Assembly: GCA_019894975.1 (NCBI GenBank)
Contig: JAGXNO010000003.1
Span: 64,001 to 128,000 of the forward strand
Direction: 5' to 3'
From: Promethearchaeota archaeon
Lineage (GTDB): Archaea > Asgardarchaeota > Lokiarchaeia > Sigyniarchaeales > SOKP01
Length of the DNA stretch: 64,000 bases
Part shown: in pieces, positions 14,941 through 34,643 of the stretch
How the letters are laid out: every line of letters begins with the position of its first letter
Position numbering within the stretch: the stretch's first letter is position 1
Translations under genes and position numbers: made by a program
The notes under the pieces: generated by a model
What the model saw: the letters and a program-made list of their open reading frames with translations, nothing else
What the model was told of the DNA's origin: nothing
Databases searched by the model: none

Positions 14941-17900
14941 CTATAAACCGTTTTTAACTTCCTCCTTTTCTAATAAATAAGAATCAATCATTGTGTTAAT
15001 TTGATCAAAATCATAGTGTTTTACCATAATAGCTCCAACAGGGCATGTAGCGGCGCATGTTCCGCATCCTTTACATACAGCAGCGTTAATGGATGATTTT
15101 GGTACAATAATACTAATATCTTCGAATTCTTTAGTTATTTCTATAAGACTAATAGCTTTATAGGGACATATATCCTCACATTTTCCACATCCGATACATT
15201 TTTCTTCCAAAACTTCAGCAACTAATCCAGAAGTTGTAATTTTATCTGAGCTTAGGAATCTACTTGCTCTACCTGCAGCTCCATTAGCTTGTGAAATTGA
15301 ATCCTGTAAATTTTTTGGCCATTGTGCACACCCACATAAGAATATTCCATCTGTAGCAAAATCTAAAGGTCTTAATTTAACATGTGCTTCTAAAAAGAAT
15401 CCATTCTTATCTAATGGAACTTTCAACATCATAGCTAATTCTTTTAGATTATCGGAAGGAATCATTGGTGTTGAAAGTATTAATAAATCTGTTTCAAATT
15501 CGACAGTATCTTTTAAATTTGTATCATATACTTTTAACTGATATTTTTCAGGACTTCCCTCACTCTTTGTCACCTCAGGAAGCTTATCTAAGTCGTATCT
15601 GAGAAAAATTGCGTCCTTTCGACGTTCACGGTAGTATTCCTCAAATTCTTTCTTAGCCATCTGTAGATCTCTGTAAATTACAACAACTTCTAATTCGGGT
15701 TTCAATTCTTTTAAGATTCTAACATTTTTTAGTGAAGTAGCGCAGCAAATATTAGAACAGTAAGTTATGCCTTCATTCTGACGAGCATTAACACATAATA
15801 TTATTGTTACTCGATTAATTTGGTCTAACCATGAGTTATCCTTATTTTGCAACTTCTGTTCTAATTCTAATTGAGTCATAATATTTTCATTCTTTTCTTG
15901 ATATCCAAAAAGACCTGTTGGTTTGAGTTCTTGTCCTCCGGTAGCGACAATAATGGTTCCAATTTTTACATTGTGGGATTCGTTATTTGAATCTTTAATT
16001 ACTACATCATAATTCCCTACATATCCTTTAATGTCTTCAAATTTAGCATTAAGAAATACTTGAATGTGGTTGTGCTTCTCAATTTTTTCCTTTGTTTCAT
16101 TTAATAATTCTAACGCATTTTTATGAACAGGATATAATACATTAAGAAATCTTAAATTCCCCCCTAATTCACTGTCTTTCTCTACAATAATAGTTTTAAA
16201 TCCCTGATTTGCGGTATTTAAAGCTGCAGTCATCCCAGATATACCTCCCCCAATAACTAATGATGTGTGAGTAATATCAACTTTCTCTTCTTTCTGAGGT
16301 TTCAATAATCTGGATTTAGCAATATGCATTCTGATTAAATCTTTAGATTTCTCTGTAGCAGCTTCTTTTTCCGTCATATGAACCCAGGAACACTGATCTC
16401 TGATATTTACTAGTTCAAATAAATATTTATTTAATCCTGCTTCTTGACAGGTTTCTTGAAATAACGATTCATGAGTTCTTGGGGTACAAGAAGCTACAAT
16501 AAACCTGTTTAAATTGTGTTCAGCAATTAATTCCTTAATTCTAATTTGAGAATCTGAAGAACAGGAATAAAGATTACTTTCACATACTACAACATTTGGA
16601 AGGCCTTTTACATATTCTACAACCCTAGGAACATCTACATAATTTCCTATATTTATCCCACAGTGACAGACCATAACACCGATTCTTGGCTCATCTGTAA
16701 TTTTTATTACTTTTTCAGGAACATCAAACACTTTTTCCTTCATAAGAGTGTATTTAACAGAACTTAGCAAATCTGCTATTTGGGCTGCTACTCCACTGGC
16801 ATCTGCAACTGTTTCAGGAATATCCATTGGTCCCTGACAGAATCCACATAAGTACACTCCCTCTCTTGTAGATTTTAGTTTATCAAAATAAGAAGCTTCT
16901 TGGAAAAAATCATATTTATCCAACCCAATGTCTAAAGCTTTTCCTAATTCTTTAACACCCTTAGATGGAACAAGCGGTGATGCTAACACTACAAGGTTTG
17001 CTCTAAAATCTTTGAATTCCCCCGTTTTAAGATCTTCATATCTTAAAATTAAATCATTAGTTTCAAGATCTTCTTCAATTGTACTTATCTTAGACTGAAA
17101 GTATTTTACCCCATATTCTTCTTGGGCTCTTTGAATAAATTCATAAAAGTTTTTACCGTAAGCTCGTATATCGTGCCGAAATACATAACAATCTGAATTA
17201 TCTGAATGTTCTTGAGTGATAATTGCTTGTTTTGCTGTATAAGTGCAACAAACGCTTGAACAAAAAGGTACATTTTCATGAAGATCTCGAGAACCCGCAC
17301 ACTGGACAAAAGCAATTACTTCAGGTTCCTTACCATCACTTAATCGCTTTACATGACCCTCAAATGGTCCAGATGCACATAAAATCCTTTCATATTCAAG
17401 TGCACTTACAACATTCTCGAATCGATACCCCCATCTAGAGGATAACTCTTCAGCAGGCATTTCATATCCCGTTGCGACTACTACAGCACCAATATTAATT
17501 TCAAATTCTTCAGGTTTCTGTTCAAAGTCTATTGCATCCGCAGTACAAACTTTTTTGCATACTTGACAGACTCCCTTCTTTAAATATAGACACATCTCTG
17601 AATCAATTAAGTAGATAGGAGGTACTGCTTGAGGAAAAGGAATATACACTGATTTTATTTTCCCAATATTCATTTCAAAAGGATTTGGAGCTAAAATTTT
17701 TGGACATTTATTTGCACAATCCCCACATCCCTTACATTTAGTTTCATCAACATATCGAGGTTTTTTCAAAATTTTTGCTGTAAAATCCCCTGGCTGGCCT
17801 TCAAGTTGAAGAACTTCATGATAAGTCATCAATTCAACATTAGGATTGCGAAAGACTTCAACCATTTTGGGAGCAAGGATACATAGTGAACAGTCCAAAG

Positions 17901-18048
17901 TAGGGAAAGTCTTATCTAATTGAGCCATCCTTCCTCCAATCGAAGGAGATTTTTCCACTAAATAGACTTTAAATCCTAGTTCTGTAAGATCAAGAGATAT
18001 CTGAATTCCAGCTATTCCTCCTCCAATTACCAAAACTGAACCTTCCAT
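14941..18048 (-). CDS. hdrA: Large tandem HdrA-like flavoprotein (two FAD modules, multiple Fe-S)
   Basis: Two GGGIxG Rossmann motifs, LDKTFPTLDCSLC, CHCGINI...SCTPRTHE...RDQCSWVH, C-terminal 2x[4Fe-4S]. Confidence 0.93.
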   Translation of the reverse strand: MEGSVLVIGGGIAGIQISLDLTELGFKVYLVEKSPSIGGRMAQLDKTFPTLDCSLCILAPKMVEVFRNPNVELMTYHEVLQLEGQPGDFTAKILKKPRYVDETKCKGCGDCANKCPKILAPNPFEMNIGKIKSVYIPFPQAVPPIYLIDSEMCLYLKKGVCQVCKKVCTADAIDFEQKPEEFEINIGAVVVATGYEMPAEELSSRWGYRFENVVSALEYERILCASGPFEGHVKRLSDGKEPEVIAFVQCAGSRDLHENVPFCSSVCCTYTAKQAIITQEHSDNSDCYVFRHDIRAYGKNFYEFIQRAQEEYGVKYFQSKISTIEEDLETNDLILRYEDLKTGEFKDFRANLVVLASPLVPSKGVKELGKALDIGLDKYDFFQEASYFDKLKSTREGVYLCGFCQGPMDIPETVADASGVAAQIADLLSSVKYTLMKEKVFDVPEKVIKITDEPRIGVMVCHCGINIGNYVDVPRVVEYVKGLPNVVVCESNLYSCSSDSQIRIKELIAEHNLNRFIVASCTPRTHESLFQETCQEAGLNKYLFELVNIRDQCSWVHMTEKEAATEKSKDLIRMHIAKSRLLKPQKEEKVDITHTSLVIGGGISGMTAALNTANQGFKTIIVEKDSELGGNLRFLNVLYPVHKNALELLNETKEKIEKHNHIQVFLNAKFEDIKGYVGNYDVVIKDSNNESHNVKIGTIIVATGGQELKPTGLFGYQEKNENIMTQLELEQKLQNKDNSWLDQINRVTIILCVNARQNEGITYCSNICCATSLKNVRILKELKPELEVVVIYRDLQMAKKEFEEYYRERRKDAIFLRYDLDKLPEVTKSEGSPEKYQLKVYDTNLKDTVEFETDLLILSTPMIPSDNLKELAMMLKVPLDKNGFFLEAHVKLRPLDFATDGIFLCGCAQWPKNLQDSISQANGAAGRASRFLSSDKITTSGLVAEVLEEKCIGCGKCEDICPYKAISLIEITKEFEDISIIVPKSSINAAVCKGCGTCAATCPVGAIMVKHYDFDQINTMIDSYLLEKEEVKNGL

Positions 18049-21106: not shown

Positions 21107-24100
21107 TTATATTATAAGTGCCTTTATAGAAGCCTCAATTTGCTCAAAATCGTAATGCTTAATTGAGATTGCCCCCACAGGACAGCTTACCGCGCAAGTT
21201 CCACATCCTTTACAGAGACTTGAATTGACAGAAGACTTTTTTATAGGAAGACTTACCTCTTCAAATTCTTTAAGGCTATCTATTATTTCTATTGCATTGT
21301 AAGCACATGTCTCCTCGCAAGTCCCACACCCAATACACATATCTTGATTTACTTCAGCAATTAATCCTGACGATGTAATCTCTCCCGCACTTAAAAATCT
21401 ACTTGCTCTTCCCGCAGCACCATTTGCTTGCGATATTGAATCCTGTATATTTTTTGGCCACTGAGCACATCCACATAAGAATATTCCCTCAGTAGCAAAA
21501 TCTAATGGTCTTAATTTTACATGTGCTTCTAGAAAAAAACCATTTTTATCTAAAGGAACCTTGAGCATTTTTGCTAACCCATCTAAATTGTCAGCGGGAA
21601 CCATAGGAGTCGATAGAACTAATAAATCTGTGTTAAATTTGATATCATCTTGTAAATTAGTATCAAAAACTTTAATTTCAAACTTACTTGTTCCTTCATC
21701 TATCTCTTTAATCACCGGTGGACTCTCTAAATCATATCTCAAAAAAATAGCATCTTTTCTTCGCTCACGGTAATATCTTTCAAATTCTTTTTTTGCCATT
21801 TGAAGATCTCGATAGAGAACGATTAATTTGAGGTCCTGCTTTAGCTCTTTTAGGATGTTAATATTTTTTATAGCACTTTCGCAACAAATATTTGAGCAAT
21901 ATGTTATTCCGCTCTCCTGCCTAGCATTAACGCATAATAACGTTGTAATATGATTCAGATTATCAAGCCATGAATTATCCTCATCTTTAAATTTCTGTTC
22001 GAGTTGCAGTTGTGTAATTACATTATGGTTCGTATACTTATAGTCAAAAAATTCATTAGGTGTTAATTCTTGGCCGCCAGTAGCAACAATAATAGTACCA
22101 ATTTTTAATTCATGAACATTTTTATCTGAATCGAGCAATGCAACATCATAATTACCAATATATCCCGTAATATCTTTAAATTCAGAATTTAAAAAGATTT
22201 GAATGTTTTTATTATTCTTAACTTTTTCTATGGTTTCGTTTAATAAGATTGAAGCATCTTCTTGAGTGGGAAATAACATATTTAGGTGCCTTAGATTTCC
22301 ACCTAGGTTTTTCTCCTTTTCTATAAGATAAGTATTAAATCCTTGATTAGCAATGTTCAAAGCAGCCGTCATTCCAGATATCCCTCCACCAATTACCATT
22401 GTAGTTTGAGTGATTTTCAATTTCTTTTCTTCTTGTGGTCTTAACAACCTTGATTTAGCAATACCCATTCTTATTAAATCAATTGCCTTTTCAGTAGCAA
22501 GCTCTTTTTCTGTCATATGTACCCATGAACATTGATCACGGATATTTACCATATCAAATAAGTATTTATTTAATCCCGCTTCTTGACAGGTTTCTTGGAA
22601 TAATGACTCGTGTGTTCTTGGTGTACATGATGCTACAATAAATCTATTTAAATCAAATTCACTTATTACTTCCTTTATTCGCTCTTGAGAATCTGAGCTA
22701 CAAGAATATAGATTGTCTTCACAGAAGGCTACATTAGGTAACGTTTTTATTTGTTCAATAACTTGAGGGATATCAACATATTTCCCTATATTAATTCCAC
22801 AATGACAGATTAATACTCCAATTCTTGGATCATCAGTATCTTTTACTATTTTTTCGGGTATTCCAATAATTTTCTCTTTTGTTTCAGTAAATTTAAAGGA
22901 ATTAAGCAATGTAGCTATTTGTGAGGCAACTCCACTGGCATCAGCAACAGTTTCTGGTATATCCATTGGACCTTGACAAAAACCAGCCAAAAAAATTCCT
23001 TCTTTGGAAGACAGTGATTTATTGAAGTATGATCTTTCCTTAAAGAAATTATAATCATCTAATTCGATATCTAAAACTTTAGAAAATTCTTTGGTCCCAG
23101 CCGAAGGAACTAGAGGTGAAGCTAGTACGACAAGATTTGCCTTAAAATCTTTAAATTCACCTGTTTTTAGATCCTCATAGTGAATGATTAAATCATTAGA
23201 TTCTGGATCTTCTATTATTCTACTAACCTTTGTCTGGAAATATTTTATACCATATTCTTCTTGAGCTCTCTGAGTAAACTCATAAAAATTTTTTCCATAA
23301 GCTCTAATATCATGTCTAAATACAAAACATTTTGAGTTTTCAGAGTGTTCTCGTGTTATAATCGCTTCTTTTGCAGTATACATGCAACATACACTGGAAC
23401 AATAGGGGATTCCCTCACGTAAGTCTCTAGATCCCGCACATTGAATAAATGCGATTATTTCTGGTTCTTCCTCATCGCTAGGTCGTAAAATATGACCTCC
23501 AAATGGCCCAGAGGCAGACAGCATTCGTTCGTATTCCAAGGCATTTACCACATTTTTATACTTATAACCCCATCGTGAGCTTAATTCTTCCCCAAGTACA
23601 TCATATCCCGTAGCAACAACAATAGCTCCAACGTTTAATTTGATTTCTTGAGGTTTTTGTTCATAATCTATTGCTTCTACTTTACAAACCTTTTCACAAA
23701 CTCCGCATACTCCCTTAGTTAGTTTTAAACATAGCTCAGAGTCAATTAAGTACACAGGAGGTACTGCTTGAGGAAATGGAATGTACACAGATTTTCTTTT
23801 ACCAAGATTCATATCAAAGATATTAGGTGATTCAATCTTTGGACATTTGGTAGCACAATCACCACACCCTTTACATTTAGTCTCGTCAATATAACGAGGT
23901 TTCTTAAGGACTGTAACCACAAAATTCCCAGGCTTACCAGATACTTTTTGAACTTCATGATAGGTCATTAATTCAATATTAGGATTTCTAAATACCTCTA
24001 CCATTTTAGGAGCTAAAATACATAGACTGCAATCATTTGTAGGAAAGGTTTTATCAAGTTGAGCCATCCTTCCTCCGATTGAAGGTGTTTTTTCTACTAA

Positions 24101-24187
24101 ATAAACGTTAAATCCTAATTCAGATAAATCTAAAGATGTTTGTATCCCTGCAATCCCACCACCAATAACTAACACTGATCCTTCCAT
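21107..24187 (-). CDS. hdrA: Large tandem HdrA-like flavoprotein, close paralogue of 14941..18048
   Basis: Same motif architecture and near-identical N-terminus (MEGSVLVIGGGIAG). Confidence 0.93.
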   Translation of the reverse strand: MEGSVLVIGGGIAGIQTSLDLSELGFNVYLVEKTPSIGGRMAQLDKTFPTNDCSLCILAPKMVEVFRNPNIELMTYHEVQKVSGKPGNFVVTVLKKPRYIDETKCKGCGDCATKCPKIESPNIFDMNLGKRKSVYIPFPQAVPPVYLIDSELCLKLTKGVCGVCEKVCKVEAIDYEQKPQEIKLNVGAIVVATGYDVLGEELSSRWGYKYKNVVNALEYERMLSASGPFGGHILRPSDEEEPEIIAFIQCAGSRDLREGIPYCSSVCCMYTAKEAIITREHSENSKCFVFRHDIRAYGKNFYEFTQRAQEEYGIKYFQTKVSRIIEDPESNDLIIHYEDLKTGEFKDFKANLVVLASPLVPSAGTKEFSKVLDIELDDYNFFKERSYFNKSLSSKEGIFLAGFCQGPMDIPETVADASGVASQIATLLNSFKFTETKEKIIGIPEKIVKDTDDPRIGVLICHCGINIGKYVDIPQVIEQIKTLPNVAFCEDNLYSCSSDSQERIKEVISEFDLNRFIVASCTPRTHESLFQETCQEAGLNKYLFDMVNIRDQCSWVHMTEKELATEKAIDLIRMGIAKSRLLRPQEEKKLKITQTTMVIGGGISGMTAALNIANQGFNTYLIEKEKNLGGNLRHLNMLFPTQEDASILLNETIEKVKNNKNIQIFLNSEFKDITGYIGNYDVALLDSDKNVHELKIGTIIVATGGQELTPNEFFDYKYTNHNVITQLQLEQKFKDEDNSWLDNLNHITTLLCVNARQESGITYCSNICCESAIKNINILKELKQDLKLIVLYRDLQMAKKEFERYYRERRKDAIFLRYDLESPPVIKEIDEGTSKFEIKVFDTNLQDDIKFNTDLLVLSTPMVPADNLDGLAKMLKVPLDKNGFFLEAHVKLRPLDFATEGIFLCGCAQWPKNIQDSISQANGAAGRASRFLSAGEITSSGLIAEVNQDMCIGCGTCEETCAYNAIEIIDSLKEFEEVSLPIKKSSVNSSLCKGCGTCAVSCPVGAISIKHYDFEQIEASIKALII

Positions 24188-24703: not shown

Positions 24704-25135
24704 TTATTTTAGTTTTAAAGGTCCTTGTTCTTTTATTTGATTTGTAAATTCTGTAATTACCTCTGAAAATCTCTTCCCTTCAGAGGCACTAACCCATTCA
24801 AGTCTAAACCTTTTTTTAAGATTAAATATTTTTAAAACATCCTGAAAACGTTCAAATCTATCTCGTGCAAACTCGTTACCTTTTAAGTAGTGACAATCTC
24901 CAATATGACACCCAGTTACAATAACTCCATCAATGCCATCTTTAAATGCTTCTAAAATGAAGGCAGGATCTACTCTCCCAGAGCACATTACCCGTACTAT
25001 CCTAATTGTAGCAGGGTATTGAAATCGTGAGACTCCCGCCAAATCTGCTCCCGCATAACTGCACCAATTGCAACAAAAACATAAAATTTTTGGGTGAAAT
25101 TCCTTTTGACTTACTTTTTTTTTTGACTTAGACAT
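24704..25135 (-). CDS. mvhD: MvhD [2Fe-2S] subunit (Cys form)
   Basis: FCCNWCSYAGAD, CSGRVD and GCHIGDCHY motifs. Confidence 0.95.
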   Translation of the reverse strand: MSKSKKKVSQKEFHPKILCFCCNWCSYAGADLAGVSRFQYPATIRIVRVMCSGRVDPAFILEAFKDGIDGVIVTGCHIGDCHYLKGNEFARDRFERFQDVLKIFNLKKRFRLEWVSASEGKRFSEVITEFTNQIKEQGPLKLK

Positions 25136-25159
25136 AAGTTACTACCTTAGAATTTAACT

Positions 25160-28100
25160 TTAGGTTAATAGTGCTGAAATCATTGCATTAATTTGCTCAA
25201 AACCAAAATGTTTGATTACTATTGTGGAATTAGGACATTGAGCCCCACAAGTACCACAACCTTTACAGAGTGCAGGATTAATATGAGATTTCTTTGTAGC
25301 CATTGTAAAATCTTCAAACACTCGTTCTTTCTCTATTAGTTCAATCGCGTTGAATTGGCAGACATCTTGACAATTTCCACAACCAATACAATTTTCTTCT
25401 ATTACAGTCGCTACAAGCCCTGATGTTACAATTTTTTCAGCACTTAATATTTTTACTGCTTGAGCAGCAGCTCCATTGGATTGTGCTATTGACTCTCGAA
25501 GATCTTTAGGTGAATGAGCACATCCACATAGGTATATTCCATCGGTTGCGAAATCTATTGGTCTCAACTTAACGTGAGCTTCTAAAAAGAATTTATCCTC
25601 GTTTAACGGAACTTTTAACATTTTCGCTAATTCTTCGTTTTCTTTGATTGGTGCTTCTAATCCTGTACTTAAAACGATTAGATCTGGATTTATTATAAGT
25701 TCTCCTAAATCAGGATTATTTACTCTTAAATTTAATTGTTTGTTTTTTAAATTTAATTCTGGGGGATTGGTTTTATCAAATCTGATAAAAATAATGTTAT
25801 TATCTCGCGCTTGGTTATAATATTTTTCTTTAAAGCCATAGGTTCTAATATCGCGATATAAGACCACTATTTCTATATTAGGATTAATTTCTTTTGCTTT
25901 TAACGCATTTTTTATGGCTTCTGAACAACAGATTCTACTACAATATGAGTGTTCTTCATTTCTGGACCCAACACATTGAATCATAACTATAGATTTTAAT
26001 CCTTTTATCTTATCTGTAGTAAAAAGATCTTTTTCAAAGTTAGTTTGAGTTATAATTCTTTTATCTTGCCCAAATTTATATTCTTTTGGTTGATATTCTT
26101 TTGCTCCAGTAGCTACAATAATTATGCCATGATCAAGATCAATGCTTTTCTTAATACTCCCATGGCTAATGTTTGTGGAAAAATTTCCAATATATCCTGA
26201 GATTGAATTAATTCTGGCTTCTTTAAATACATGGATAAGTTGATTACTTTCTACATTTTTAATCAAATTCCTAAGATAATCTTGAATATCATCATTTTCA
26301 AGTGTTTTATAAAGATTATTTGCAATCCCCCCTAAAGAATCTTCTTTTTCAATTAAAAATATCTCAAAACCTTGAGAGGCAAGGTTTAATGCTGCAGTGA
26401 TTCCAGATACACCCCCACCTATAATTAATCCCTTATCTATCACAGCTATTTCTTGTTCTTGTAATGGTATTAATTGACTAGCCTTTGCTACTGACATCCT
26501 TAGTAAGTCTTTCGATTTTGCTGTTGCTTTTTCTGGTTCATGCATATGAACCCATGAGCATTGATCACGGATATTAACCATTTCAAAAAGATATTTATTC
26601 AAACCAACCTCTCTTATAGTTGCTTGAAATAAAGATTCATGAGTTCTTGGGGTACATGAGGCAACTATTACTCTATTAAGTTGGTTCTTTTCTATTTTTT
26701 CTTTAATATTAGTTTGAGTATCTGCTGAACATGTATACAAATTATGCTCTGCATAAACGACATCGGGCAGTGTCTTAACATATTCTACAACACTAGGAAC
26801 ATCAACTACACCCCCGATGTTTATCCCACAGTGACATATAAATACACCTATTCGGGGTGGAAGACTACTTACGTCTAATTCATTGGGAAGTTCTTTCTTT
26901 GAGATTAATTTATTTCTTGCTTCTGATAATAGAACATTGACACGTCCTGCAGCAGCACTAGCTTCAATAACAGTTTCTGGAATATCTTTAGGTGCTGCAA
27001 ATGCACCACATACATAAATTCCCGGTTTAGAGGTCTCTACGGGAGAAAAAGTTTCAGTTTTACAAAATCCATAATCATTTAATTCAAAATTTAATACTTG
27101 TGCTAATTCTTTTGCTTTTTGATTTGGTTGCATTCCAACAGAAAGAACAACTAAGTTAAAAATTTCTTCCACAATTTTTCCATTTTCATTTTCATAATAG
27201 ACTCTTAAATCTTTAGAGTTAGGGTTTTCTTTTATGTAAGAAATTCTACGTCTGATGTATCTTACTCCATATTCATCTCTCGCTCTCTCAATATACTTAT
27301 CAAAGTCTTTACCGTACGCTCTGATATCCATCGTAAAAATGGTTGGTTTTATAATTTCCATATGTTCTTTCGCGATTACAGCTTCTTTTGTAGTGTACAT
27401 ACAGCATACTGAAGAACAGTATTCAATACCTTTACTTCTATCCCTTGAACCAATACAATGTAAAAATGCTATTTTTTTAGGAATAGTTCCGTCAGAAGGT
27501 CGAATTATTAAACCGGAATGCGGTCCACTTGCACTAAGAATACGTTCAAATTCAATACTGGTAATCACATTAAGATATTTACCATAACCATATTGTGTCA
27601 GAGGAGTGGGATCATATTCATCAAATCCAGTTGCTACTACTACAGCACCCACATTAAGAGATATCTCTTTATCTTGAATTTCATAGTCTATAGCTTTTGC
27701 TTTACATATCCCTTTGCACATTCCACAGCCAATGCATTTTTCTTTATTTATTGAAAACACTAATGGAACCGCCTGTGGAAATTTTACAGATATTGCAGCT
27801 TTATTAGAAAGCTTTTCATTAAAAAAATCAATAGCTTCAATAGGGCATTCCTGAGCGCATAAACCACATCCAGTACATTTGCTTTGATCCAAACGAAGCG
27901 TCCCTTGAGTTAATTCAACATTAAAATTACCAGGTTCACCATCAATTTTTTCGATTGAAGTGTTAATTAAAATATCGATATTTTCATGTCGACCAGTTTC
28001 TACTAATTTCGGGGCCAGAATACATATTGCACAGTCATTAGTTGGAAATGTTTTATCCAATTGAGACATAACCCCCCCAATACTGGTAGTGGATTCTGCG

Positions 28101-28195
28101 AGGTAAACTTTATATCCAGAATCTGCTAGATCTATAGAGGTTTGAATACCTGCAATTCCACCACCAATAACTAAAACAGCTCCAACTTTTTCCAT
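25160..28195 (-). CDS. hdrA: Large tandem HdrA-like flavoprotein
   Basis: LDKTFPTNDCAIC, CSSVCC, CHCGINI, SCTPRTHE, CSRICC, C-terminal ferredoxin. Confidence 0.93.
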   Translation of the reverse strand: MEKVGAVLVIGGGIAGIQTSIDLADSGYKVYLAESTTSIGGVMSQLDKTFPTNDCAICILAPKLVETGRHENIDILINTSIEKIDGEPGNFNVELTQGTLRLDQSKCTGCGLCAQECPIEAIDFFNEKLSNKAAISVKFPQAVPLVFSINKEKCIGCGMCKGICKAKAIDYEIQDKEISLNVGAVVVATGFDEYDPTPLTQYGYGKYLNVITSIEFERILSASGPHSGLIIRPSDGTIPKKIAFLHCIGSRDRSKGIEYCSSVCCMYTTKEAVIAKEHMEIIKPTIFTMDIRAYGKDFDKYIERARDEYGVRYIRRRISYIKENPNSKDLRVYYENENGKIVEEIFNLVVLSVGMQPNQKAKELAQVLNFELNDYGFCKTETFSPVETSKPGIYVCGAFAAPKDIPETVIEASAAAGRVNVLLSEARNKLISKKELPNELDVSSLPPRIGVFICHCGINIGGVVDVPSVVEYVKTLPDVVYAEHNLYTCSADTQTNIKEKIEKNQLNRVIVASCTPRTHESLFQATIREVGLNKYLFEMVNIRDQCSWVHMHEPEKATAKSKDLLRMSVAKASQLIPLQEQEIAVIDKGLIIGGGVSGITAALNLASQGFEIFLIEKEDSLGGIANNLYKTLENDDIQDYLRNLIKNVESNQLIHVFKEARINSISGYIGNFSTNISHGSIKKSIDLDHGIIIVATGAKEYQPKEYKFGQDKRIITQTNFEKDLFTTDKIKGLKSIVMIQCVGSRNEEHSYCSRICCSEAIKNALKAKEINPNIEIVVLYRDIRTYGFKEKYYNQARDNNIIFIRFDKTNPPELNLKNKQLNLRVNNPDLGELIINPDLIVLSTGLEAPIKENEELAKMLKVPLNEDKFFLEAHVKLRPIDFATDGIYLCGCAHSPKDLRESIAQSNGAAAQAVKILSAEKIVTSGLVATVIEENCIGCGNCQDVCQFNAIELIEKERVFEDFTMATKKSHINPALCKGCGTCGAQCPNSTIVIKHFGFEQINAMISALLT

Positions 28196-29472
28196 TATTT
28201 TTCTCCTTTAGGTTCATTTGAGTTTACTACTTCTATCATGTCTACTAAAAACTCAGAAAAATCTATAATATCAATTGAAGAAAAATCTTCATAATCTTTT
28301 TTTAGACATCTTAAATGCATTCGGCATTTTGGACAGGAAGTAATCATTTTTGTTCCTACTGCTTTAGCTTCCAAAAGACGCTTATATCGTAGAGCTTTAG
28401 ATTTTTCATTACAATTCATCCAGGAATTCACCCCACAACAATAAGAATTTTCTTTATTATGTTCCATTTCTTTGAAATCATATCCAATGGTTTTCAAATG
28501 CTTAAAAATTTCTCGGACATTCTCAATTACCTTATTCTCCTTTGGTAAAAACCGACTTAATCTACAAGGATCGTGATAAGTGAAAGGAATAACATCATTA
28601 GATTCATTAGGATTTTTAAATTGAACTTCTCCCTGCTTCCACTTATCAAAAATATATTCAATTATATGTTTAACTTCAAATTTATTATTAAATTCTTCAA
28701 AAATATTTGGGTAATCAATTTTAAAGGTTCTATAACATTCAGCACATGCGGTTATAATTGTTTTGATACCTGCGTCTTCAAAATTACTCAAATTTTTTTT
28801 TCCTAATTCGATAAATGCTTCGAACTTTGCCTGGCCCCAATATAGATCATGACCACAACATGTTTCATTTTTAAGAACGACTACGGGATCTCTTTCTAAT
28901 TGACAAATAATCTTTAAAGTGCTTTCCGCTATAGAAGTTGAACCTTCAAATTCATAATTAAATAAAGGTAAACATCCCACATAATATAAAATTTCTCCTT
29001 TATTTGAAACGTTACAACCTTTTGGAATCCAATCTAAAGGTCTTTCAATATTAATATTATCTTGAACCATTAGTTCTGACATTAGAGGATAAATACCTTT
29101 GTGAGCAATTGAACGATCAGGATTCTGAATATCATTTAATCGCATTTTATACCTGGCAATTCTAACAATATCAGCAAAATTAATGTCTTTAGGACAATGT
29201 TGTAGGCAACTATTACACATTAAACAATCCCATAATACCTGGCTATTAATTATCTCATCTTCAAAGCCTTCTAATATCATCTGAATAATTCTACTTGGCG
29301 TAAATTTTTGAACTTTACTAATTTGACATACACCTGAGCAACGAGCGCATTGGTAACACTTTTTTAGTAAATTAACTAAATCAGGTTCATAAATTTTTCC
29401 TATATATAAATTAGAATCAGTTTTTCCTATTTTTTCTTTTTTTAATTTTTCCAATTCTGTTATACGATTCAC
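28195..29472 (-). CDS. hdrD: HdrD-like Fe-S oxidoreductase, paralogue of 18048..19328
   Basis: CYQCARCSGVC, CLMCNSCLQHCP, CCG x2. Confidence 0.85.
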   Translation of the reverse strand: MNRITELEKLKKEKIGKTDSNLYIGKIYEPDLVNLLKKCYQCARCSGVCQISKVQKFTPSRIIQMILEGFEDEIINSQVLWDCLMCNSCLQHCPKDINFADIVRIARYKMRLNDIQNPDRSIAHKGIYPLMSELMVQDNINIERPLDWIPKGCNVSNKGEILYYVGCLPLFNYEFEGSTSIAESTLKIICQLERDPVVVLKNETCCGHDLYWGQAKFEAFIELGKKNLSNFEDAGIKTIITACAECYRTFKIDYPNIFEEFNNKFEVKHIIEYIFDKWKQGEVQFKNPNESNDVIPFTYHDPCRLSRFLPKENKVIENVREIFKHLKTIGYDFKEMEHNKENSYCCGVNSWMNCNEKSKALRYKRLLEAKAVGTKMITSCPKCRMHLRCLKKDYEDFSSIDIIDFSEFLVDMIEVVNSNEPKGEK

Positions 29473-29476
29473 TACC

Positions 29477-30589
29477 TTATTTTAGGTTTTTCATAAATTC
29501 ATGTTTTCTTTCCATTTTTGATTCAGAAAACTTTACGATTAGATTTTTTATACTTCTTCTTTTACTTTCGTCGAGTTTTAAACTTTTTATAATGTTTTTT
29601 TCCAACACCTTATTAAATATCTGTTTTCCTTTTTCAGTACGGGGCAATACAGTAGTAAATTTATCTGGGGAACCAAGTCCACCAAACGAAATATCTGAAT
29701 AAACATTAGTAAAATCAGTGCAGGAATGACAAGCAGGACGAATATAATTAACTAGTTTATTAAAAGGAATATGGATTATTTTTTCTTTTTCTTTTTCATC
29801 CTTTAGTTTTAGAATTAAATCTTCCTTAATATTTATCTTGATTATATCTTCGAATTTTATCTTAAATTCTTCTTCAAATTTCCCAATTTGAGATTTTTCA
29901 AATAAAAAATTATGATAACAGAATAAGCCAAAAGTAATCTCAACATGTTCTGAAGGGGTAACCCCAAGATTTTGCATACATCTAATCGTGTAGATTTGAC
30001 ATGGTGTTCCCACAATTGCTAGTTTTTTAAATTTATAATGATTCAGTTGAGGAATTGATTGTGTATAAGTATTAAACCTTTGAATTTCATCTAAATGAGG
30101 TGATATATTCAAATTTGTACCTGAAGCTTTGATTAAGTCGTCTTTAGTCTCTGCAAACATAGCTTCTCGGGAAAAAGGACCCTCAGCTTTAGAGACTATT
30201 GCCCCATCAATAATTTTATTTTCCAATAAAAAATTTAAAAGTGTATTAACCACGCCCCCATCTGTACCATATTTTAGAAATTCTTCATCTGTGGTTTGAC
30301 ATGAATAGATTTCTTCAGCAAATCCATAAGGCATTGAAGTGAAATCAGTGAATTGATAAGTTTTATTCAGATCATCATCTAAAATATGTGTTTGAGGGCA
30401 TAATATATAACATATACCACAATCGAGACATGCCTCCTTATTTATATATTCAGGGGGAGAATTAGGTTTTTTAAAGCCAATAACTTTTTCAAAAGCCGCT
30501 GAGCAGAATGATGTACATCCTCCACATTCTTGGCAGATCCCTTTTTCATGAACTTCCTTAATTAAATCTTGGAATGTTTTTACAGGCAT
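29477..30589 (-). CDS. FrhB/FdhB-family (F420-binding) subunit with N-terminal ferredoxin
   Basis: CQECGGC, CLDCGICYILCP, DGGVV, VGTPCQ, GLFC, CHSCTDF, DISFG. ATG 30589 (MPVKTF) preferred because the track start overlaps the upstream gene. Confidence 0.85.
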   Translation of the reverse strand: MPVKTFQDLIKEVHEKGICQECGGCTSFCSAAFEKVIGFKKPNSPPEYINKEACLDCGICYILCPQTHILDDDLNKTYQFTDFTSMPYGFAEEIYSCQTTDEEFLKYGTDGGVVNTLLNFLLENKIIDGAIVSKAEGPFSREAMFAETKDDLIKASGTNLNISPHLDEIQRFNTYTQSIPQLNHYKFKKLAIVGTPCQIYTIRCMQNLGVTPSEHVEITFGLFCYHNFLFEKSQIGKFEEEFKIKFEDIIKINIKEDLILKLKDEKEKEKIIHIPFNKLVNYIRPACHSCTDFTNVYSDISFGGLGSPDKFTTVLPRTEKGKQIFNKVLEKNIIKSLKLDESKRRSIKNLIVKFSESKMERKHEFMKNLK

Positions 30590-30605
30590 ATTTTTAATAT
30601 TTACA

Positions 30606-32114
30606 TTACTCTTTCTGTAAAATAATTGGTTTACAATTTTTTCTCTTAATACCAGCAATCCTTTCGAGTAAGGGTTGTCCTGGTTTGACATCTTTCAAAC
30701 TTTTTGATTCAATTAATCCTGCTTTAACTGCTTCTTTATAGATTTTTTCACCTTTTTTATTTCTTGTAATGACTGAAGACCACCCGCTGGGAGATCCAAT
30801 TGATCCAACAGAAATATCAGCATAATCAGCAGTTAGGTCTTCACAATAATGACAATTGTGACGAGCGTAGGATTTAACATCGTTCAAGGGAACGTTTAGA
30901 TCTTCACCTGAATCTAGATAAATAATGAATTTACCCCCACTTATGTCCATTTTTGTTACTTTTTGAAAATCTGTTTCAAATTGTTCTTTAATTAAGCTTA
31001 GGACGCCTTCATAAGGAAATGATTCCATACAAAAGAGCCCTATTCTATATTTTATATTTTTGAAAAAAGGTAACCCGCTTGGAAATAAGCTACCCTTTTC
31101 CAAGGCGTTCATCATACAAGGAACACCTACAACTGCGATGTTATCAAACTTTTTTGTACCATCTATAATACTTAAAGTTGAGGCATTAGCGTATTTAGTA
31201 CCACTTGTTTTATATAAATCCTTGACATCTTCTATTATTACTGGTTCTGGCTTCCATAGTTCTTCTGAATGTTTTACTGCTACAATTGCATCAACTAATT
31301 TATTCTCGAGTAAATACTCAAGTAGAGATGTAACGATACCCCCATCTTGTCGTACTTTTTTAATATCATCCTTGGTGGTGCTGGCTGAATATGCGTTAAC
31401 ATAGCCATTAATATTTTCTGAAAACTTCAAGGATTTCTCAATTTTGCTTATACTTTTACCCGCTTGCTCAATTGAAAATGATCTTGGGCAAACAGAATAA
31501 CATAAGCCACATTTCATGCATGTCGCATCGTCGATCTCCAAAGTGTCTGCTGTCACTGTAATGGCATTTACTGGACAAATTGATGAGCACCAACCACATT
31601 GACAACATACTTCAGAATCAAACACAATGGAAACAGGTTCAAAAAACCGTTCGATAAAACCATCAGGTAGATCTTTAACCTGGTATCGGTAGAAATATTC
31701 TTTTTCTTCGACTTCTTTTTCTTCTCCCTTTATTTTCTTAATAACAGTTTTAGTTTTTATTTCAATATGTTCTTCTATATATCCTTGTTCTTTCAGATAA
31801 ATTACATCGCGAATTACATTTTCAGGAGGAAAATCTTTTATAATTTTAGCAATTTCTTCTAAAAATAACGGTTCTTTACCTTTTAAAGATTCTAAAACTA
31901 ACTTACGCTCTGTTTCAGCATCGATCATAGCATCTAGGAATTCATAAAATTCTTCTTCAGAATATTTACCAGTTTCTAAAATTTCACCTTTAGCTTCGAA
32001 AAAAGCCCTAATCTGAAAATTCTCGACTGCTTTATAGGTGGCATCCATTAAATTTCTTGGAGAGATTCCATTGAAATTTAGATTTTTTGAGATTTGAACC
32101 ATATTTCCAACCAT
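30606..32114 (-). CDS. FrhB/FdhB-family subunit with N-terminal extension and ferredoxin
   Basis: CCQCGWCSSICP, CMKCGLCYSVCP, QDGGIVT, SGTKY, VGVPC, GLFCME, CHYCED, ADISVG; start may be 32102. Confidence 0.87.
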   Translation of the reverse strand: MVGNMVQISKNLNFNGISPRNLMDATYKAVENFQIRAFFEAKGEILETGKYSEEEFYEFLDAMIDAETERKLVLESLKGKEPLFLEEIAKIIKDFPPENVIRDVIYLKEQGYIEEHIEIKTKTVIKKIKGEEKEVEEKEYFYRYQVKDLPDGFIERFFEPVSIVFDSEVCCQCGWCSSICPVNAITVTADTLEIDDATCMKCGLCYSVCPRSFSIEQAGKSISKIEKSLKFSENINGYVNAYSASTTKDDIKKVRQDGGIVTSLLEYLLENKLVDAIVAVKHSEELWKPEPVIIEDVKDLYKTSGTKYANASTLSIIDGTKKFDNIAVVGVPCMMNALEKGSLFPSGLPFFKNIKYRIGLFCMESFPYEGVLSLIKEQFETDFQKVTKMDISGGKFIIYLDSGEDLNVPLNDVKSYARHNCHYCEDLTADYADISVGSIGSPSGWSSVITRNKKGEKIYKEAVKAGLIESKSLKDVKPGQPLLERIAGIKRKNCKPIILQKE

Positions 32115-32166: not shown

Positions 32167-32234
32167 ACCCCTTCCCTCGCAAGGTAAGTCATCTTATAAC
32201 TAACATTTTTTTATAAGATTCATTCTGCAGGGGT
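32167..32234 (-). promoter_or_regulatory. Eukaryote-type SECIS element (selenocysteine insertion hairpin)
   Basis: RNA ACCCCUGCAGA-AUGAA-UCUUAUAA-AAAAAUGUUAG-UUAUAAGA-UGAC-UUACCUUGCGAGGGAAGGGGU. It has an AUGA/GA core, a perfect 8-bp upper stem, an A-rich apical loop and a lower CCCUGCAG/UUGCGAGGG helix, and lies directly 3' of two TGA-interrupted genes. Confidence 0.8.
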
Positions 32235-32693
32235 AATTATAACTTGTTTTGTTTCTTCAGTTTCCACTTCTGAATCATGATCTATTAAATTAAGCGGACT
32301 TGGTCCGAAGGTTTTTACCTTTTCTATAGTATCTTCCACACTTTTTACAAATTTTTCTGCTTCTGCTCCACTTAACCAATACATATTAACCCTTTGATTA
32401 CCGAAACCCCGAGATTCTAAAATCCTGTTTGCTAATTCAACATGTCTTTGAGCCGTGAAATTGCCGTTCTTAAACTGGCATTCATTAGGGCGTCAACCTA
32501 CAATCATGACACCATCCGCTCCAGATTTCATACTGTAAAGTATGTGTTTCAAATCTACTCTCCCTGTACAACGCACTTTAATAATTTTTATAGATGAAGA
32601 ATATTTCAGTCGAGAAACTCCTGCTAGATCAGCAGCACTGTAACCTCATTTTAAACATGCAAATGCAACAATCTTATAATTATAATTATTCAT
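32220..32693 (-). CDS. mvhD: Selenocysteine-containing MvhD/VhuD (157 aa; U16, U67); absent from the ORF track
   Basis: Manual translation MNNYNYKIVAFACLK-U-GYSAADLAGVSR...RCTGRVD...GADGVMIVG-U-RPNECQF...WLSGAEAEKF. TGA at 32646-32648 and 32493-32495 align to Cys of the Cys paralogues (CNWC, GCH). Confidence 0.92.
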
Positions 32694-32696
32694 TGT

Positions 32697-34643
32697 TTAA
32701 TCCCCTCCTAACAGTCCATCAATCTCAGCAAATAATTGATGATCTCGATAATATCTTATATCAATGGCCTGAGTAGGACAGCAAGTTGCACAAATACCGC
32801 ATCCATCACAATTTATCTCATCAATATATGCTCCAATTTCTTCATCAATCTTAATAGCGTTTTTAGGGCATTCCTTTTCACATCGTCTGCAGGAAATGCA
32901 AAATTCGCTATCAACTTCAGCAGTAATTAATTCAATATCAATTTCTCCTGGAGATGTTAGTTCAGCAACTTTACTAGCAGCAGCTCTAGATTGTGAAACG
33001 GAATAAGCAATATTTTTTGGCCCTTGAGCAAATCCAGCTATAAAAATGCCTTTTGACTTAGTCTCTTGCGGCATTAATCCGAAATGTGATTCTGTAAGAA
33101 AGCCGTATTTGTTAGTATCAAGCTTTAAAACGTCTACGATTTGTTGAGTGCCTTTTGAAGGAAGTGCTGCCGTGGATAAGACAACTAAATCAGCATCAAT
33201 TTTGACAATCTTATCAGTTAATGATGAATATAATCGAACTTTCACGTTTTTAGTTTCAGGATCTTCTGAGATTTCACCAACTTTTCCCCGAATCATCCTA
33301 ATACCTTTATCTTTCGCACGTTCATAATACTCCTCAAAACCTTTTTCTGGAGTCCTTATATCGATATAACAAATTGTAATCCTCGCATCAGGAAATTCTT
33401 CTAGAAGCAATCTCCCATTCTTTAGAGCAAGCATACAACAGACACCACTACAATAGGTTCTTTCTGTTTCTCTACTGCCCACACATTGAATGAACACAAT
33501 TTCCTTAGGTTCCTTATTATCTGAAATTCGATGCACATGACCTTCAAGTGGTCCATTTGGAGCTAACATCCGTTCTAATTGAACCTGGGTTATCACATTT
33601 TCAATCTCTCCATAACCATATTCACCAAAAGGTTCATGTATATCCCAACCAGTTGCAATTATGACTGTACCCACTTCAACATTAACTTCCACTGGCTCCT
33701 GACTAAAATCAATTGCATCCAATTCGCACGCATCAACGCATGAAAAGCATTCTACACAAGCTTCTCTATCAATATCATATAAAAATGGGACTGCTTGACC
33801 GAATGGAATGTCTATTGCTCTTCGTGCTCCCAGATTTTCATCAAAATAATTTTGCGTGTAAACAGGACAAACTTCAGCACAGGCCCCACACCCATTACAT
33901 TCATCTGTCGTATATCGTGGTTTCTTTACAATTGTTGCGATATAATTACCAACATATCCTTCGATCTTTTTTACTTCACAATAGCTCATTAATTCGATGT
34001 TTTCGTTTCTATTAACTTCTAACATTTTAGGCCCGCAAATTCATATTGCACAGTCATCTGTAGGAAAAGTTCTATCCAATTGAGCCATCCTTCCTCCTAT
34101 TGTAGTCTTTTGTTCTACAAGATAAACTTTGATACCTTGATTGGCGAGATCTAAAGCCGCATTCATACCACCAATCCCTCCTCCAACTACTAAAGTAGCT
34201 TTAGTAACAGGGACTGTTTTAATAGGGACGGGCTCTAATCGTTTAACTCGTTCAACACCGCCTTTTACCAATTGTTTAGCTTTTTGTGTAGCTTCTTCTT
34301 TGCTATCTGTACACCAAGAACAATGTTCTCGAACGTTTACCATTTGAAAATAATAAGGGTTTAAATCTGTTTTAGCAATTGTACCCCTATAAATTACTTC
34401 GTGCGTTCGGGGAGTTCAAGCTGATGCTACGATTCTGTTTAGATTTTTTTCTTTGATATCTTCAATTATTTCATTTTGGGCATTGTCGGTTCAAAGAAAT
34501 GCATTCTTTTTTGATATTATAATTTCTTCAGGAAATTCGTTTTTAACATACTCTACTAGCTCATCACAATTAACTTTACTTTTTATATTTATACCTCACT
34601 GACATGCATAGTATCCAATCCGATGATTTGTATTTTTATTCAT
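32697..34643 (-). CDS. hdrA: Selenocysteine-containing HdrA (648 aa; U16, U51, U76, U201); split into fragments in the ORF track
   Basis: One frame from ATG 34643 to TAA 32697, with TGA at 34596-98 (CQUG), 34491-93 (FLUT), 34416-18 (ASAUTPRTHE) and 34041-43 (DDCAIUICGPKM). Each matches a conserved Cys in the three Cys-type HdrA paralogues. Confidence 0.92.

What the first reader, a model, noticed from the sequence alone, without database searches (positions are those of the whole stretch)
32697..34643. HdrA with four selenocysteines, three of them in the N-terminal Fe-S-binding domain
Seen: a single frame of 649 codons with four in-frame TGAs. Each replaces an invariant Cys of the neighbouring HdrA paralogues: CHCG to CQUG (U16), YSCS to FLUT (U51), ASCTPR to ASAUTPR (U76), DCAICI to DCAIUI (U201). 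Established: Methanococcales HdrA carries Sec at the DCxxU position, and Lokiarchaeota encode Sec machinery. Inference: the three extra Sec sit at ligand positions of the N-terminal [4Fe-4S] cluster. That would give a largely selenolate-ligated cluster, which could tune electron bifurcation. Standard gene callers fragment this gene.
Basis: partly seen in the sequence, partly recalled or inferred. Interest (0 to 1): 0.9.

Follow-up and report, generated by a model that had tools for sequence, protein, structure and literature searches.

The report
Four-selenocysteine HdrA in a Lokiarchaeon
This is a real gene for an electron-bifurcating flavoprotein (HdrA) with four selenocysteines, read with its two-selenocysteine partner VhuD through one shared eukaryote-like SECIS hairpin, but this arrangement was already described for Lokiarchaeota in 2016.

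Summary
On the minus strand, 34643-32697 is one 648-codon frame with in-frame TGA at codons 16, 51, 76 and 201. It matches solved HdrA structures end to end (E 1e-196). Each TGA sits where methanogen HdrA and the window's own HdrA paralogues have Cys.

The TGAs are not damage:
- In 80 orthologous loci from other Promethearchaeota (Lokiarchaeota) MAGs, TGA is kept at codon 16 (75/75), 76 (75/75) and 201 (80/80). Codon 51 alternates between TGA (52) and a Cys codon (23).
- Contigs from an independent metagenome study carry the same letters.
- TGA is otherwise an ordinary stop in this genome.
- The genome holds tRNA-Sec, SepSecS, SelB, two Sec-containing SelD genes and a PSTK-like gene.

Three bases downstream lies a vhuD with two Sec codons. 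Its UGA stop is part of the AUGA core of a single lokiSECIS, whose stem covaries across orthologues. That one element would serve six UGAs up to 2.4 kb away.

All of this matches Mariotti et al. 2016, so it is already known. The ligand assignments are still inferred, not shown.

The parts
32697..34643 (-). hdrA coding sequence, 648 aa plus TAA stop, with four in-frame UGA (Sec) codons
   Evidence: full-length match to HdrA structures 9sfi_A (E 8e-196) and 5odc_A (E 2e-189); FAD and Fer4 Pfam domains.
34596..34598 (-). UGA codon 16 (motif CQUG), second position of the N-domain CxC motif
   Evidence: TGA in 75/75 orthologues that cover it. Always co-occurs with U201 in the paralogues and orthologues sampled.
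34491..34493 (-). UGA codon 51 (motif FLUTD)
   Evidence: 52 orthologues have TGA and 23 have a Cys codon, the classic Sec/Cys alternation.
34416..34418 (-). UGA codon 76 (motif ASAUTPR)
   Evidence: TGA in 75/75 orthologues.
34041..34043 (-). UGA codon 201 (motif DCAIU), the canonical HdrA Sec position, equivalent to Cys197 of M. thermolithotrophicus
   Evidence: aligned to X (Sec) of 9sfi_A. TGA in 80/80 orthologues.
32220..32693 (-). vhuD/mvhD coding sequence, 157 aa, with Sec codons U16 (32648-32646) and U67 (32495-32493). Its ATG lies 3 nt after the hdrA stop, and its own stop is UGA.
   Evidence: Pfam FlpD E 2e-44. Both Sec align to the Sec ('X') positions of 9sfi_K VhuD and to Cys16/Cys67 of 9sw2_D MvhD.
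32183..32229 (-). lokiSECIS (eukaryote-like type I). AUGA core at 32223-32220, whose UGA is the vhuD stop. 9-bp stem 32219-32211 with 32199-32191. 11-nt loop AAAAAUGUUAG at 32210-32200. GA at 32190-32189.
   Evidence: fold; 95% paired, 7 of 9 pairs with compensatory changes, 0/500 shuffles reach this; 70.1 bits, E 9e-16, the only significant hit in the window.
24704..32114 (-). Same-strand downstream genes: two FrhB-like (30606-32114, 29477-30691), an HdrD-like CCG protein (28195-29472), a fused double HdrA (25160-28195) and a Cys-only MvhD (24704-25135)
   Evidence: Pfam. Likely partners of the HdrA module; co-transcription was not tested.

Best explanation
hdrA and vhuD form a two-gene selenoprotein unit in a Lokiarchaeial (Promethearchaeota) genome. 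All six internal UGAs, four in hdrA and two in vhuD, are read as selenocysteine. Decoding uses tRNA-Sec and SelB, directed by one eukaryote-like SECIS hairpin that overlaps the vhuD stop codon and lies 0.27 to 2.4 kb downstream of the UGAs.

The protein is a standard four-domain HdrA: an electron-bifurcating FAD protein with six [4Fe-4S] sites. Its four Sec replace invariant Cys of one functional site. Three lie in the mobile N-terminal domain that carries the 'shuttle' [4Fe-4S] cluster. The fourth is the U of the CxxU pair beside the bifurcating FAD, which in the dimer faces the partner's N-terminal cluster.

Shown here: the frame, the family, TGA conservation, the SECIS, the Sec machinery and the identity of the sequence in independent assemblies. 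Inferred: actual Sec insertion, co-translation from one mRNA, and which Sec are Fe ligands. My best guess is that U51, U76 and U201' are ligands together with Cys14, while U16 is a nearby free selenol.
For: - Frame and family.
- Conservation: TGA kept in 75/75, 52 of 75 (the other 23 are Cys), 75/75 and 80/80 orthologues from distinct MAGs at 75-91% identity. There are no frameshifts, and the hdrA stop is always TAA or TAG.
- SECIS: exact AUGA / 9-bp stem / 11-nt AAAAA loop / GA architecture. The stem covaries. It is the only hit in the window.
- Machinery in the same genome: tRNA-Sec at 62.6 bits with anticodon TCA, SepSecS E 9e-116, SelB at 248 bits, above cut-off, two SelD genes each with one TGA, and a PSTK-like gene at 125 bits.
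- TGA is a normal stop for 248 of 1881 long ORFs.
- Contigs from another study (X4) and another sample (X3) are identical across all four codons.
- Literature: the same architecture is described in PMC4989117 and PMC11227280.
- Site mapping: PMC9012536, PMC13580544 and PMC13518236. The fused paralogues in the window have the N-domain Cys and the DCxxC pair in complementary halves.
- Sec at textbook ferredoxin ligand positions (CxxCxxUxxxC) occurs in close orthologues.
Against: - There is no protein-level evidence of selenium here or, to my knowledge, for any Asgard HdrA.
- The PSTK candidate scores below the NCBIfam equivalog cut-off.
- No SBP2-like factor is known in archaea, so how one SECIS acts over 2.4 kb and across a cistron boundary is unexplained.
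- Ligand assignment rests on sequence alignment and on second-hand descriptions of the crystal structure. The 2026 cryo-EM papers describe Cys202/Cys205 (C198/U201 here) as a dynamic pair holding an unknown ligand or a selenylsulfide, not as a fixed cluster ligand.
- The MvhD to N-domain profile alignment is weak (E 3e-4, probability about 40%).
Confidence: 0.9

Rival explanations
1. The Sec residues are not Fe-S ligands. They are redox-active catalytic or relay residues, doing selenol/selenylsulfide chemistry between clusters and FAD, as Mariotti et al. proposed in 2016.
For: - PMC4989117 states that the Sec sites are conserved Cys not involved in cluster coordination.
- PMC13518236 sees density for a Cys-Sec197 bond in M. 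maripaludis.
- PMC13580544 calls Cys202/Cys205 and MvhD Cys16 'additional' cysteines that hold an unknown ligand.
- U16 and U201 always co-occur in the sample, and U16 aligns to the non-ligand MvhD Cys16.
Against: - The 2016 statement predates the 2017 crystal structure.
- The N-domain has only four invariant Cys/Sec: 14, 16, 51 and 76. Position 26 varies. The domain binds a [4Fe-4S] cluster (PMC9012536), so at least two of the three Sec must be ligands.
- Orthologues carry Sec at classic ferredoxin ligand positions.
Confidence: 0.2
2. The gene is a decaying pseudogene, or the TGAs are assembly or sequencing errors for TGT/TGC.
For: Four stop codons in one frame; the gene is fragmented by ORF callers.
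Against: - The same TGAs are present in 75-80 orthologues from different MAGs, with no frameshifts.
- Letters are identical in contigs of an independent study.
- Every TGA falls on an invariant Cys.
- A SECIS and the Sec machinery are present.
Confidence: 0.01
3. UGA is generally reassigned in this organism (for example to Trp or Cys), so the codons are not specifically Sec.
For: None beyond the in-frame TGAs themselves.
Against: - TGA ends 248 of 1881 long ORFs.
- In the HdrA, VhuD and SelD genes examined here, internal TGAs align with Cys or known Sec positions.
- A dedicated tRNA-SeC with anticodon TCA sits beside SepSecS.
Confidence: 0.01

Closest known systems
Lokiarchaeota multi-Sec HdrA-VhuD pairs with a shared lokiSECIS (Mariotti et al. 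2016, PMC4989117; extended to about 1400 Asgard selenoproteins by Huang et al. 2024, PMC11227280)
   Same: - Up to four Sec in HdrA at conserved Cys, including the canonical position near 200.
- vhuD with two Sec immediately downstream on the same strand.
- A single SECIS after vhuD with AUGA/GA core, 9-bp stem and 11-nt A-rich loop.
- hdrA stop is never UGA.
- Six UGAs over about 2 kb.
   Different: Nothing essential; this is another genome's copy. The AUGA core here doubles as the vhuD stop, which the paper reported for VhuU.1. One paralogue elsewhere in this genome (C109:34067-36001) has no vhuD, whereas the paper found all HdrA paired.
Methanococcales HdrA (Sec197) and VhuD (two Sec); structures 9sfi and 9t1s (M. 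maripaludis Hdr-Vhu-Fwd, PMC13518236)
   Same: Same four-domain HdrA at about 55% identity by eye. Sec at the DCxxU position. VhuD Sec at the same two positions.
   Different: - Methanococcal HdrA has Cys at the three N-domain positions.
- Each methanococcal gene is reported to have its own archaeal-type SECIS (PMC4989117).
- The host is a methanogen that reduces CoM-S-S-CoB. Here there is no hdrB/hdrC or hydrogenase next to the gene, but FrhB-like and HdrD-like genes instead.
HdrA of M. thermolithotrophicus / M. wolfeii HdrABC-MvhAGD crystal structure (5odc; Wagner et al. 2017, seen here only through PMC9012536)
   Same: Collinear over 640 residues (E 2e-189). All cluster Cys motifs and the FAD fold are conserved.
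   Different: It is all Cys. By alignment, Cys13, 46, 71 and 197 are Sec here.

Membership tests
HdrA (electron-bifurcating heterodisulfide reductase subunit A) | Full-length collinear similarity to structurally characterised HdrA | tested here: met
   residues 7-646 align to 9sfi_A (E 8e-196), 5odc_A, 8rvu_a and 7bkb_A.
HdrA (electron-bifurcating heterodisulfide reductase subunit A) | FAD-binding thioredoxin-reductase-like domain with a GxGxxG motif | tested here: met
   Pyr_redox_2, NAD_binding_8 and FAD_oxidored at residues 150-202; motif VVGGGIGG.
HdrA (electron-bifurcating heterodisulfide reductase subunit A) | Inserted and C-terminal 2x[4Fe-4S] ferredoxin domains, plus the four-Cys cluster site of the TrxR domain | tested here: met
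   Fer4 families at 247-311 and 575-628. Cys 249/252/255/259, 296/299/306 and 387/398/402/403 are Cys in 80/80 orthologues. Position 302 is Cys in 77 and Sec in 3.
HdrA (electron-bifurcating heterodisulfide reductase subunit A) | N-terminal cluster domain with invariant Cys, plus the CxxC pair (Cys194/197 in M. thermolithotrophicus numbering) | tested here: met
   positions 14, 16, 51, 76, 198 and 201 are C or U in every homologue sampled, down to 40% identity.
HdrA (electron-bifurcating heterodisulfide reductase subunit A) | Works with HdrBC to reduce a heterodisulfide | tested here: inconclusive
   No separate hdrB/hdrC genes are adjacent. An HdrD-like CCG-domain gene lies 3 kb downstream on the same strand. 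The substrate is unknown in a non-methanogen.
Archaeal selenoprotein gene | In-frame UGA aligned to Cys or Sec of homologues and conserved among orthologues | tested here: met
Archaeal selenoprotein gene | SECIS element on the same transcript | tested here: met
   That hdrA and the SECIS share one mRNA is inferred from the 3-nt gap between the genes. One RNA-library contig from a relative spans the junction, which is only a weak hint.
Archaeal selenoprotein gene | tRNA-Sec, PSTK, SepSecS, SelB and SelD in the genome | tested here: met
   PSTK is only a 125-bit full-length match, below the 290-bit equivalog cut-off.
Archaeal selenoprotein gene | Selenium actually incorporated into the protein | not testable with these tools
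   Needs proteomics or 75Se labelling.
lokiSECIS (eukaryote-like type I SECIS of Asgard archaea) | AUGA ... GA core flanking a 9-bp stem, with an 11-nt apical loop starting with A's, close to the stop codon | tested here: met
   exact architecture at 32189-32223. The description is taken from PMC4989117.
lokiSECIS (eukaryote-like type I SECIS of Asgard archaea) | Stem maintained by compensatory changes among orthologues | tested here: met
   7 of 9 pairs have double changes and 95% of cells are paired, against 42-59% when the partner is slid by 1-3 columns.

The most novel reading that the evidence does not exclude
All six Sec of the HdrA-VhuD pair line the two alternating electron paths of the mobile arm into and out of the bifurcating FAD.

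- The N-terminal 'shuttle' [4Fe-4S] cluster would have three selenolate ligands (U51, U76 and U201 of the partner protomer) and one thiolate (Cys14).
- HdrA U16 and VhuD U16 would be homologous non-ligand selenols. Each meets the C198/U201 pair in one of the two conformational states.
- Supporting pattern: in the homologues sampled, Sec at 16 and 201 always occur together (UCCU), while 76 and 51 are later additions.

This would be a naturally selenium-rich Fe-S relay. It contradicts the 2016 statement that these Sec are not cluster residues.
Probability: 0.4. Interest if true: 0.6.

Novelty: already known. Interest (0 to 1): 0.3.

Why it matters
Multi-Sec HdrA-VhuD with one distal, eukaryote-like SECIS is the key example of how the archaeal Sec system may have turned into the eukaryotic one. 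It is also a striking case of one recoding signal acting on six UGAs across two cistrons. This locus is a clean, complete and well-conserved copy of that system, useful as a reference or for constructs, but it adds no new principle.

The part worth a specialist's time is structural. Read against the post-2017 Hdr structures, the Sec positions fall on the mobile N-terminal cluster and on the Cys/Sec pair beside the bifurcating flavin. Those are the elements whose role in gating electron bifurcation is currently debated.

Tried and rejected
- Rfam at gathering thresholds finds nothing in the window. The SECIS was instead found by eye, by folding and with a home-built covariance model.
- BLASTP of VhuD against the HdrA N-domain is not significant. 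Only profile-profile alignment gives a weak collinear match.
- The 2017 crystal-structure paper is not held, and the 2016 paper's supplements are not held. So I could verify neither the exact ligand list nor the published HdrA.1-4 Sec positions.
- PMC12054007 and PMC12350162 gave no ligand detail.
- The RNA-library run X17 gave only contigs of a roughly 96% identical relative. It may contain DNA, so it does not show transcription or co-transcription.
- Parts of the stretch had no cover in some runs, and I draw nothing from that.
- I considered an alternative start at Met207, which gives the 442-aa ORF. I rejected it because it would remove the FAD-binding GxGxxG motif.
- I did not run structure or complex prediction. 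The tools return no coordinates, so they could not settle ligand identity.

Full report
**Observation**

Read on the minus strand, window 34643-32697 is a single frame of 648 sense codons ending in TAA. It has in-frame TGA at codons 16, 51, 76 and 201; the plus strand is closed. Ordinary ORF calling splits it into pieces of 100 and 442 aa.

The product aligns over residues 7-646 with solved HdrA chains: 9sfi_A at E 8e-196 and 5odc_A at E 2e-189. It carries the expected FAD and ferredoxin Pfam domains.

- In those alignments U16, U51 and U76 face Cys, in the motifs CxCG, YMCAD and AACSPR.
- U201 faces the Cys of DCSIC in 5odc_A and the Sec ('X') of 9sfi_A.
CHCG, YSCS and ASCTPR sit in the C-terminal half of the three roughly 1020-aa fused HdrA proteins of the window. 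DCxxC sits only in their N-terminal half.

**Are the TGAs real Sec codons?**

A scan of one genome per species returned 80 orthologous loci at 75-91% identity, almost all labelled Promethearchaeota or Promethearchaeia MAGs. Counts at each codon, among loci that cover it:

| Codon | TGA | Cys codon |
|---|---|---|
| 16 | 75/75 | 0 |
| 51 | 52/75 | 23 |
| 76 | 75/75 | 0 |
| 201 | 80/80 | 0 |

- All other cluster Cys are conserved, and the frames carry no other disruption. The hdrA stop is always TAA or TAG.
- Logan contigs from another sample (X3) and from an independent study (X4) match the window with zero differences across all four codons.
- TGA ends 248 of 1881 long ORFs in the genome, so there is no general reassignment.
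- The same genome encodes the Sec machinery:
  - tRNA-Sec at 62.6 bits with anticodon TCA, with SepSecS next to it (E 9e-116).
  - SelB at 248 bits, above cut-off.
  - Two SelD genes, each with one TGA.
  - A full-length PSTK-like gene scoring below the equivalog cut-off.

**Surroundings**

Three bases after the hdrA stop begins a 157-aa VhuD/MvhD gene (32693-32220; Pfam FlpD E 2e-44). It has TGA at codons 16 and 67. Both are Sec ('X') in the VhuD chain 9sfi_K, and Cys16 and Cys67 in the MvhD chain 9sw2_D, with the same numbering.

Its UGA stop (32222-32220) is part of an AUGA motif. That motif is followed by a perfect 9-bp stem, an 11-nt loop AAAAAUGUUAG, and GA. This is exactly the lokiSECIS described in PMC4989117.

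- In 42 orthologous copies the stem is 95% paired. Seven of nine pairs show compensatory changes, and none of 500 shuffles or slid registers comes near this.
- A covariance model built from them finds one hit in the window (70.1 bits, E 9e-16). It finds nothing else inside hdrA-vhuD, and five hits in the whole genome.
- The six UGAs lie 272 to 2375 nt upstream of the AUGA.
- Downstream on the same strand come two FrhB-like genes, an HdrD-like CCG protein, a fused double HdrA and a Cys-only MvhD. No hydrogenase or separate hdrB/hdrC genes are adjacent.

**Comparison with what is known**

Mariotti et al. 2016 (PMC4989117) reported the following for Lokiarchaeota:
- vhuD always directly downstream.
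- A single lokiSECIS after vhuD and none elsewhere.
- Up to six UGAs over about 2 kb.
- hdrA stops that are never UGA.

Huang et al. 2024 (PMC11227280) extended this to hundreds of Asgard genomes. The window's locus matches point for point, so the finding is already known.

The genome itself has four Sec-HdrA paralogues, with 4, 3, 2 and 2 TGA. In a sample of 151 genomes of the phylum:
- The 3-4 TGA orthologues occur only in the window's own family.
- 2-TGA forms are widespread.
- Cys-only forms are common.

**The Fe-S ligand idea**

The 2016 paper said the Sec sites are not cluster ligands, but it predates the structures.

- Chadwick et al. 2022 (PMC9012536) summarised the crystal structure. 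They state that the N-terminal cluster is bound by N-domain Cys plus Cys197 of the other HdrA protomer. They also note that HdrA variants show complementary loss of the N-domain and of Cys197. The window's fused paralogues show the same complementarity.
- Across homologues down to 40% identity, only positions 14, 16, 51 and 76 of the N-domain, and 198 and 201, are invariantly C or U. Position 26 varies. With four such residues in the domain and at least three needed, at least two of the three N-terminal Sec must be ligands.
- A profile-profile alignment of the VhuD/MvhD family to the HdrA N-domain is weak but collinear (E about 3e-4). It pairs the residues as follows:

| VhuD | HdrA |
|---|---|
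| C13 | C14 |
| U16 | U16 |
| C42 | U51 |
| U67 | U76 |
| C72 | no counterpart |

- PMC13580544 calls MvhD Cys16 and HdrA Cys202/205 'additional' cysteines. [quoted passage not shown] PMC13518236 sees a possible Cys-Sec197 selenylsulfide in M. maripaludis.
- My best guess is that U51, U76 and U201' are ligands together with C14, and that U16 is a free selenol next to the cluster. This is inference only.
- Two observations support it. Sec at 16 and 201 always co-occur in the sample, with patterns UCCU, UCUU, UUCU and UUUU. Some close orthologues carry a fifth Sec at an unambiguous ferredoxin ligand position, CxxCxxUxxxC.

**Verdict**

The system was published in 2016. Only the structural reading of where the Sec sit goes beyond the literature I could find, and it remains untested. 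Earlier first-reader notes on the same window flag the same SECIS, the six-UGA arrangement and the VhuD gene; my tests agree with them.

Noticed in passing
L039, L071, L087 and L141 (codon about 301 of hdrA); L047 (codon about 614): Some close orthologues have a fifth in-frame TGA. It falls at a textbook [4Fe-4S] ligand Cys of the inserted ferredoxin domain (CVECFSUVDAC) or of the C-terminal one (CDGUGIC). That would make seven UGAs per SECIS, and it exceeds the 'up to four' of the 2016 paper.
   Followed up: partly
Own genome, G000:C109:34067-36143 (outside the window; locus L008): A two-Sec HdrA paralogue (CRUG plus DCGIU) with no vhuD after it. A lokiSECIS (57 bits) sits directly behind its stop, and the protein has a roughly 30-aa C-terminal extension. 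This is an exception to the rule that Loki hdrA is always paired with vhuD.
   Followed up: partly
window 14941-18048, 21107-24187, 25160-28195 (minus strand): Three roughly 1020-aa fused double HdrA proteins. The first half has the DCxxC pair but no N-terminal cluster domain. The second half has the cluster domain (CHCG, YSCS, ASCTPR) but no DCxxC. The complementarity matches what was reported for ANME HdrA fusions, but in the opposite order.
   Followed up: partly
window 32211-32222 (minus strand): The vhuD UGA stop lies inside the SECIS core and is followed three codons later by an in-frame UAA. Many orthologues keep the same UGA-then-UAA arrangement. This looks like a back-up stop in case the last UGA is read through.
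   Followed up: no
Own genome, G000:C108:10686-12773 (loci L113, L114): Two adjacent SelD (selenophosphate synthetase) genes, each with one in-frame TGA. Duplicated Sec-SelD was noted for Loki- and Thorarchaeia in PMC11227280.
   Followed up: no
Own genome, G000:C98:164924-164970 and C74:585-631: Two further strong matches to the HdrA/VhuD-type lokiSECIS model (55.8 and 47.6 bits). I did not identify the selenoprotein genes next to them.
   Followed up: no
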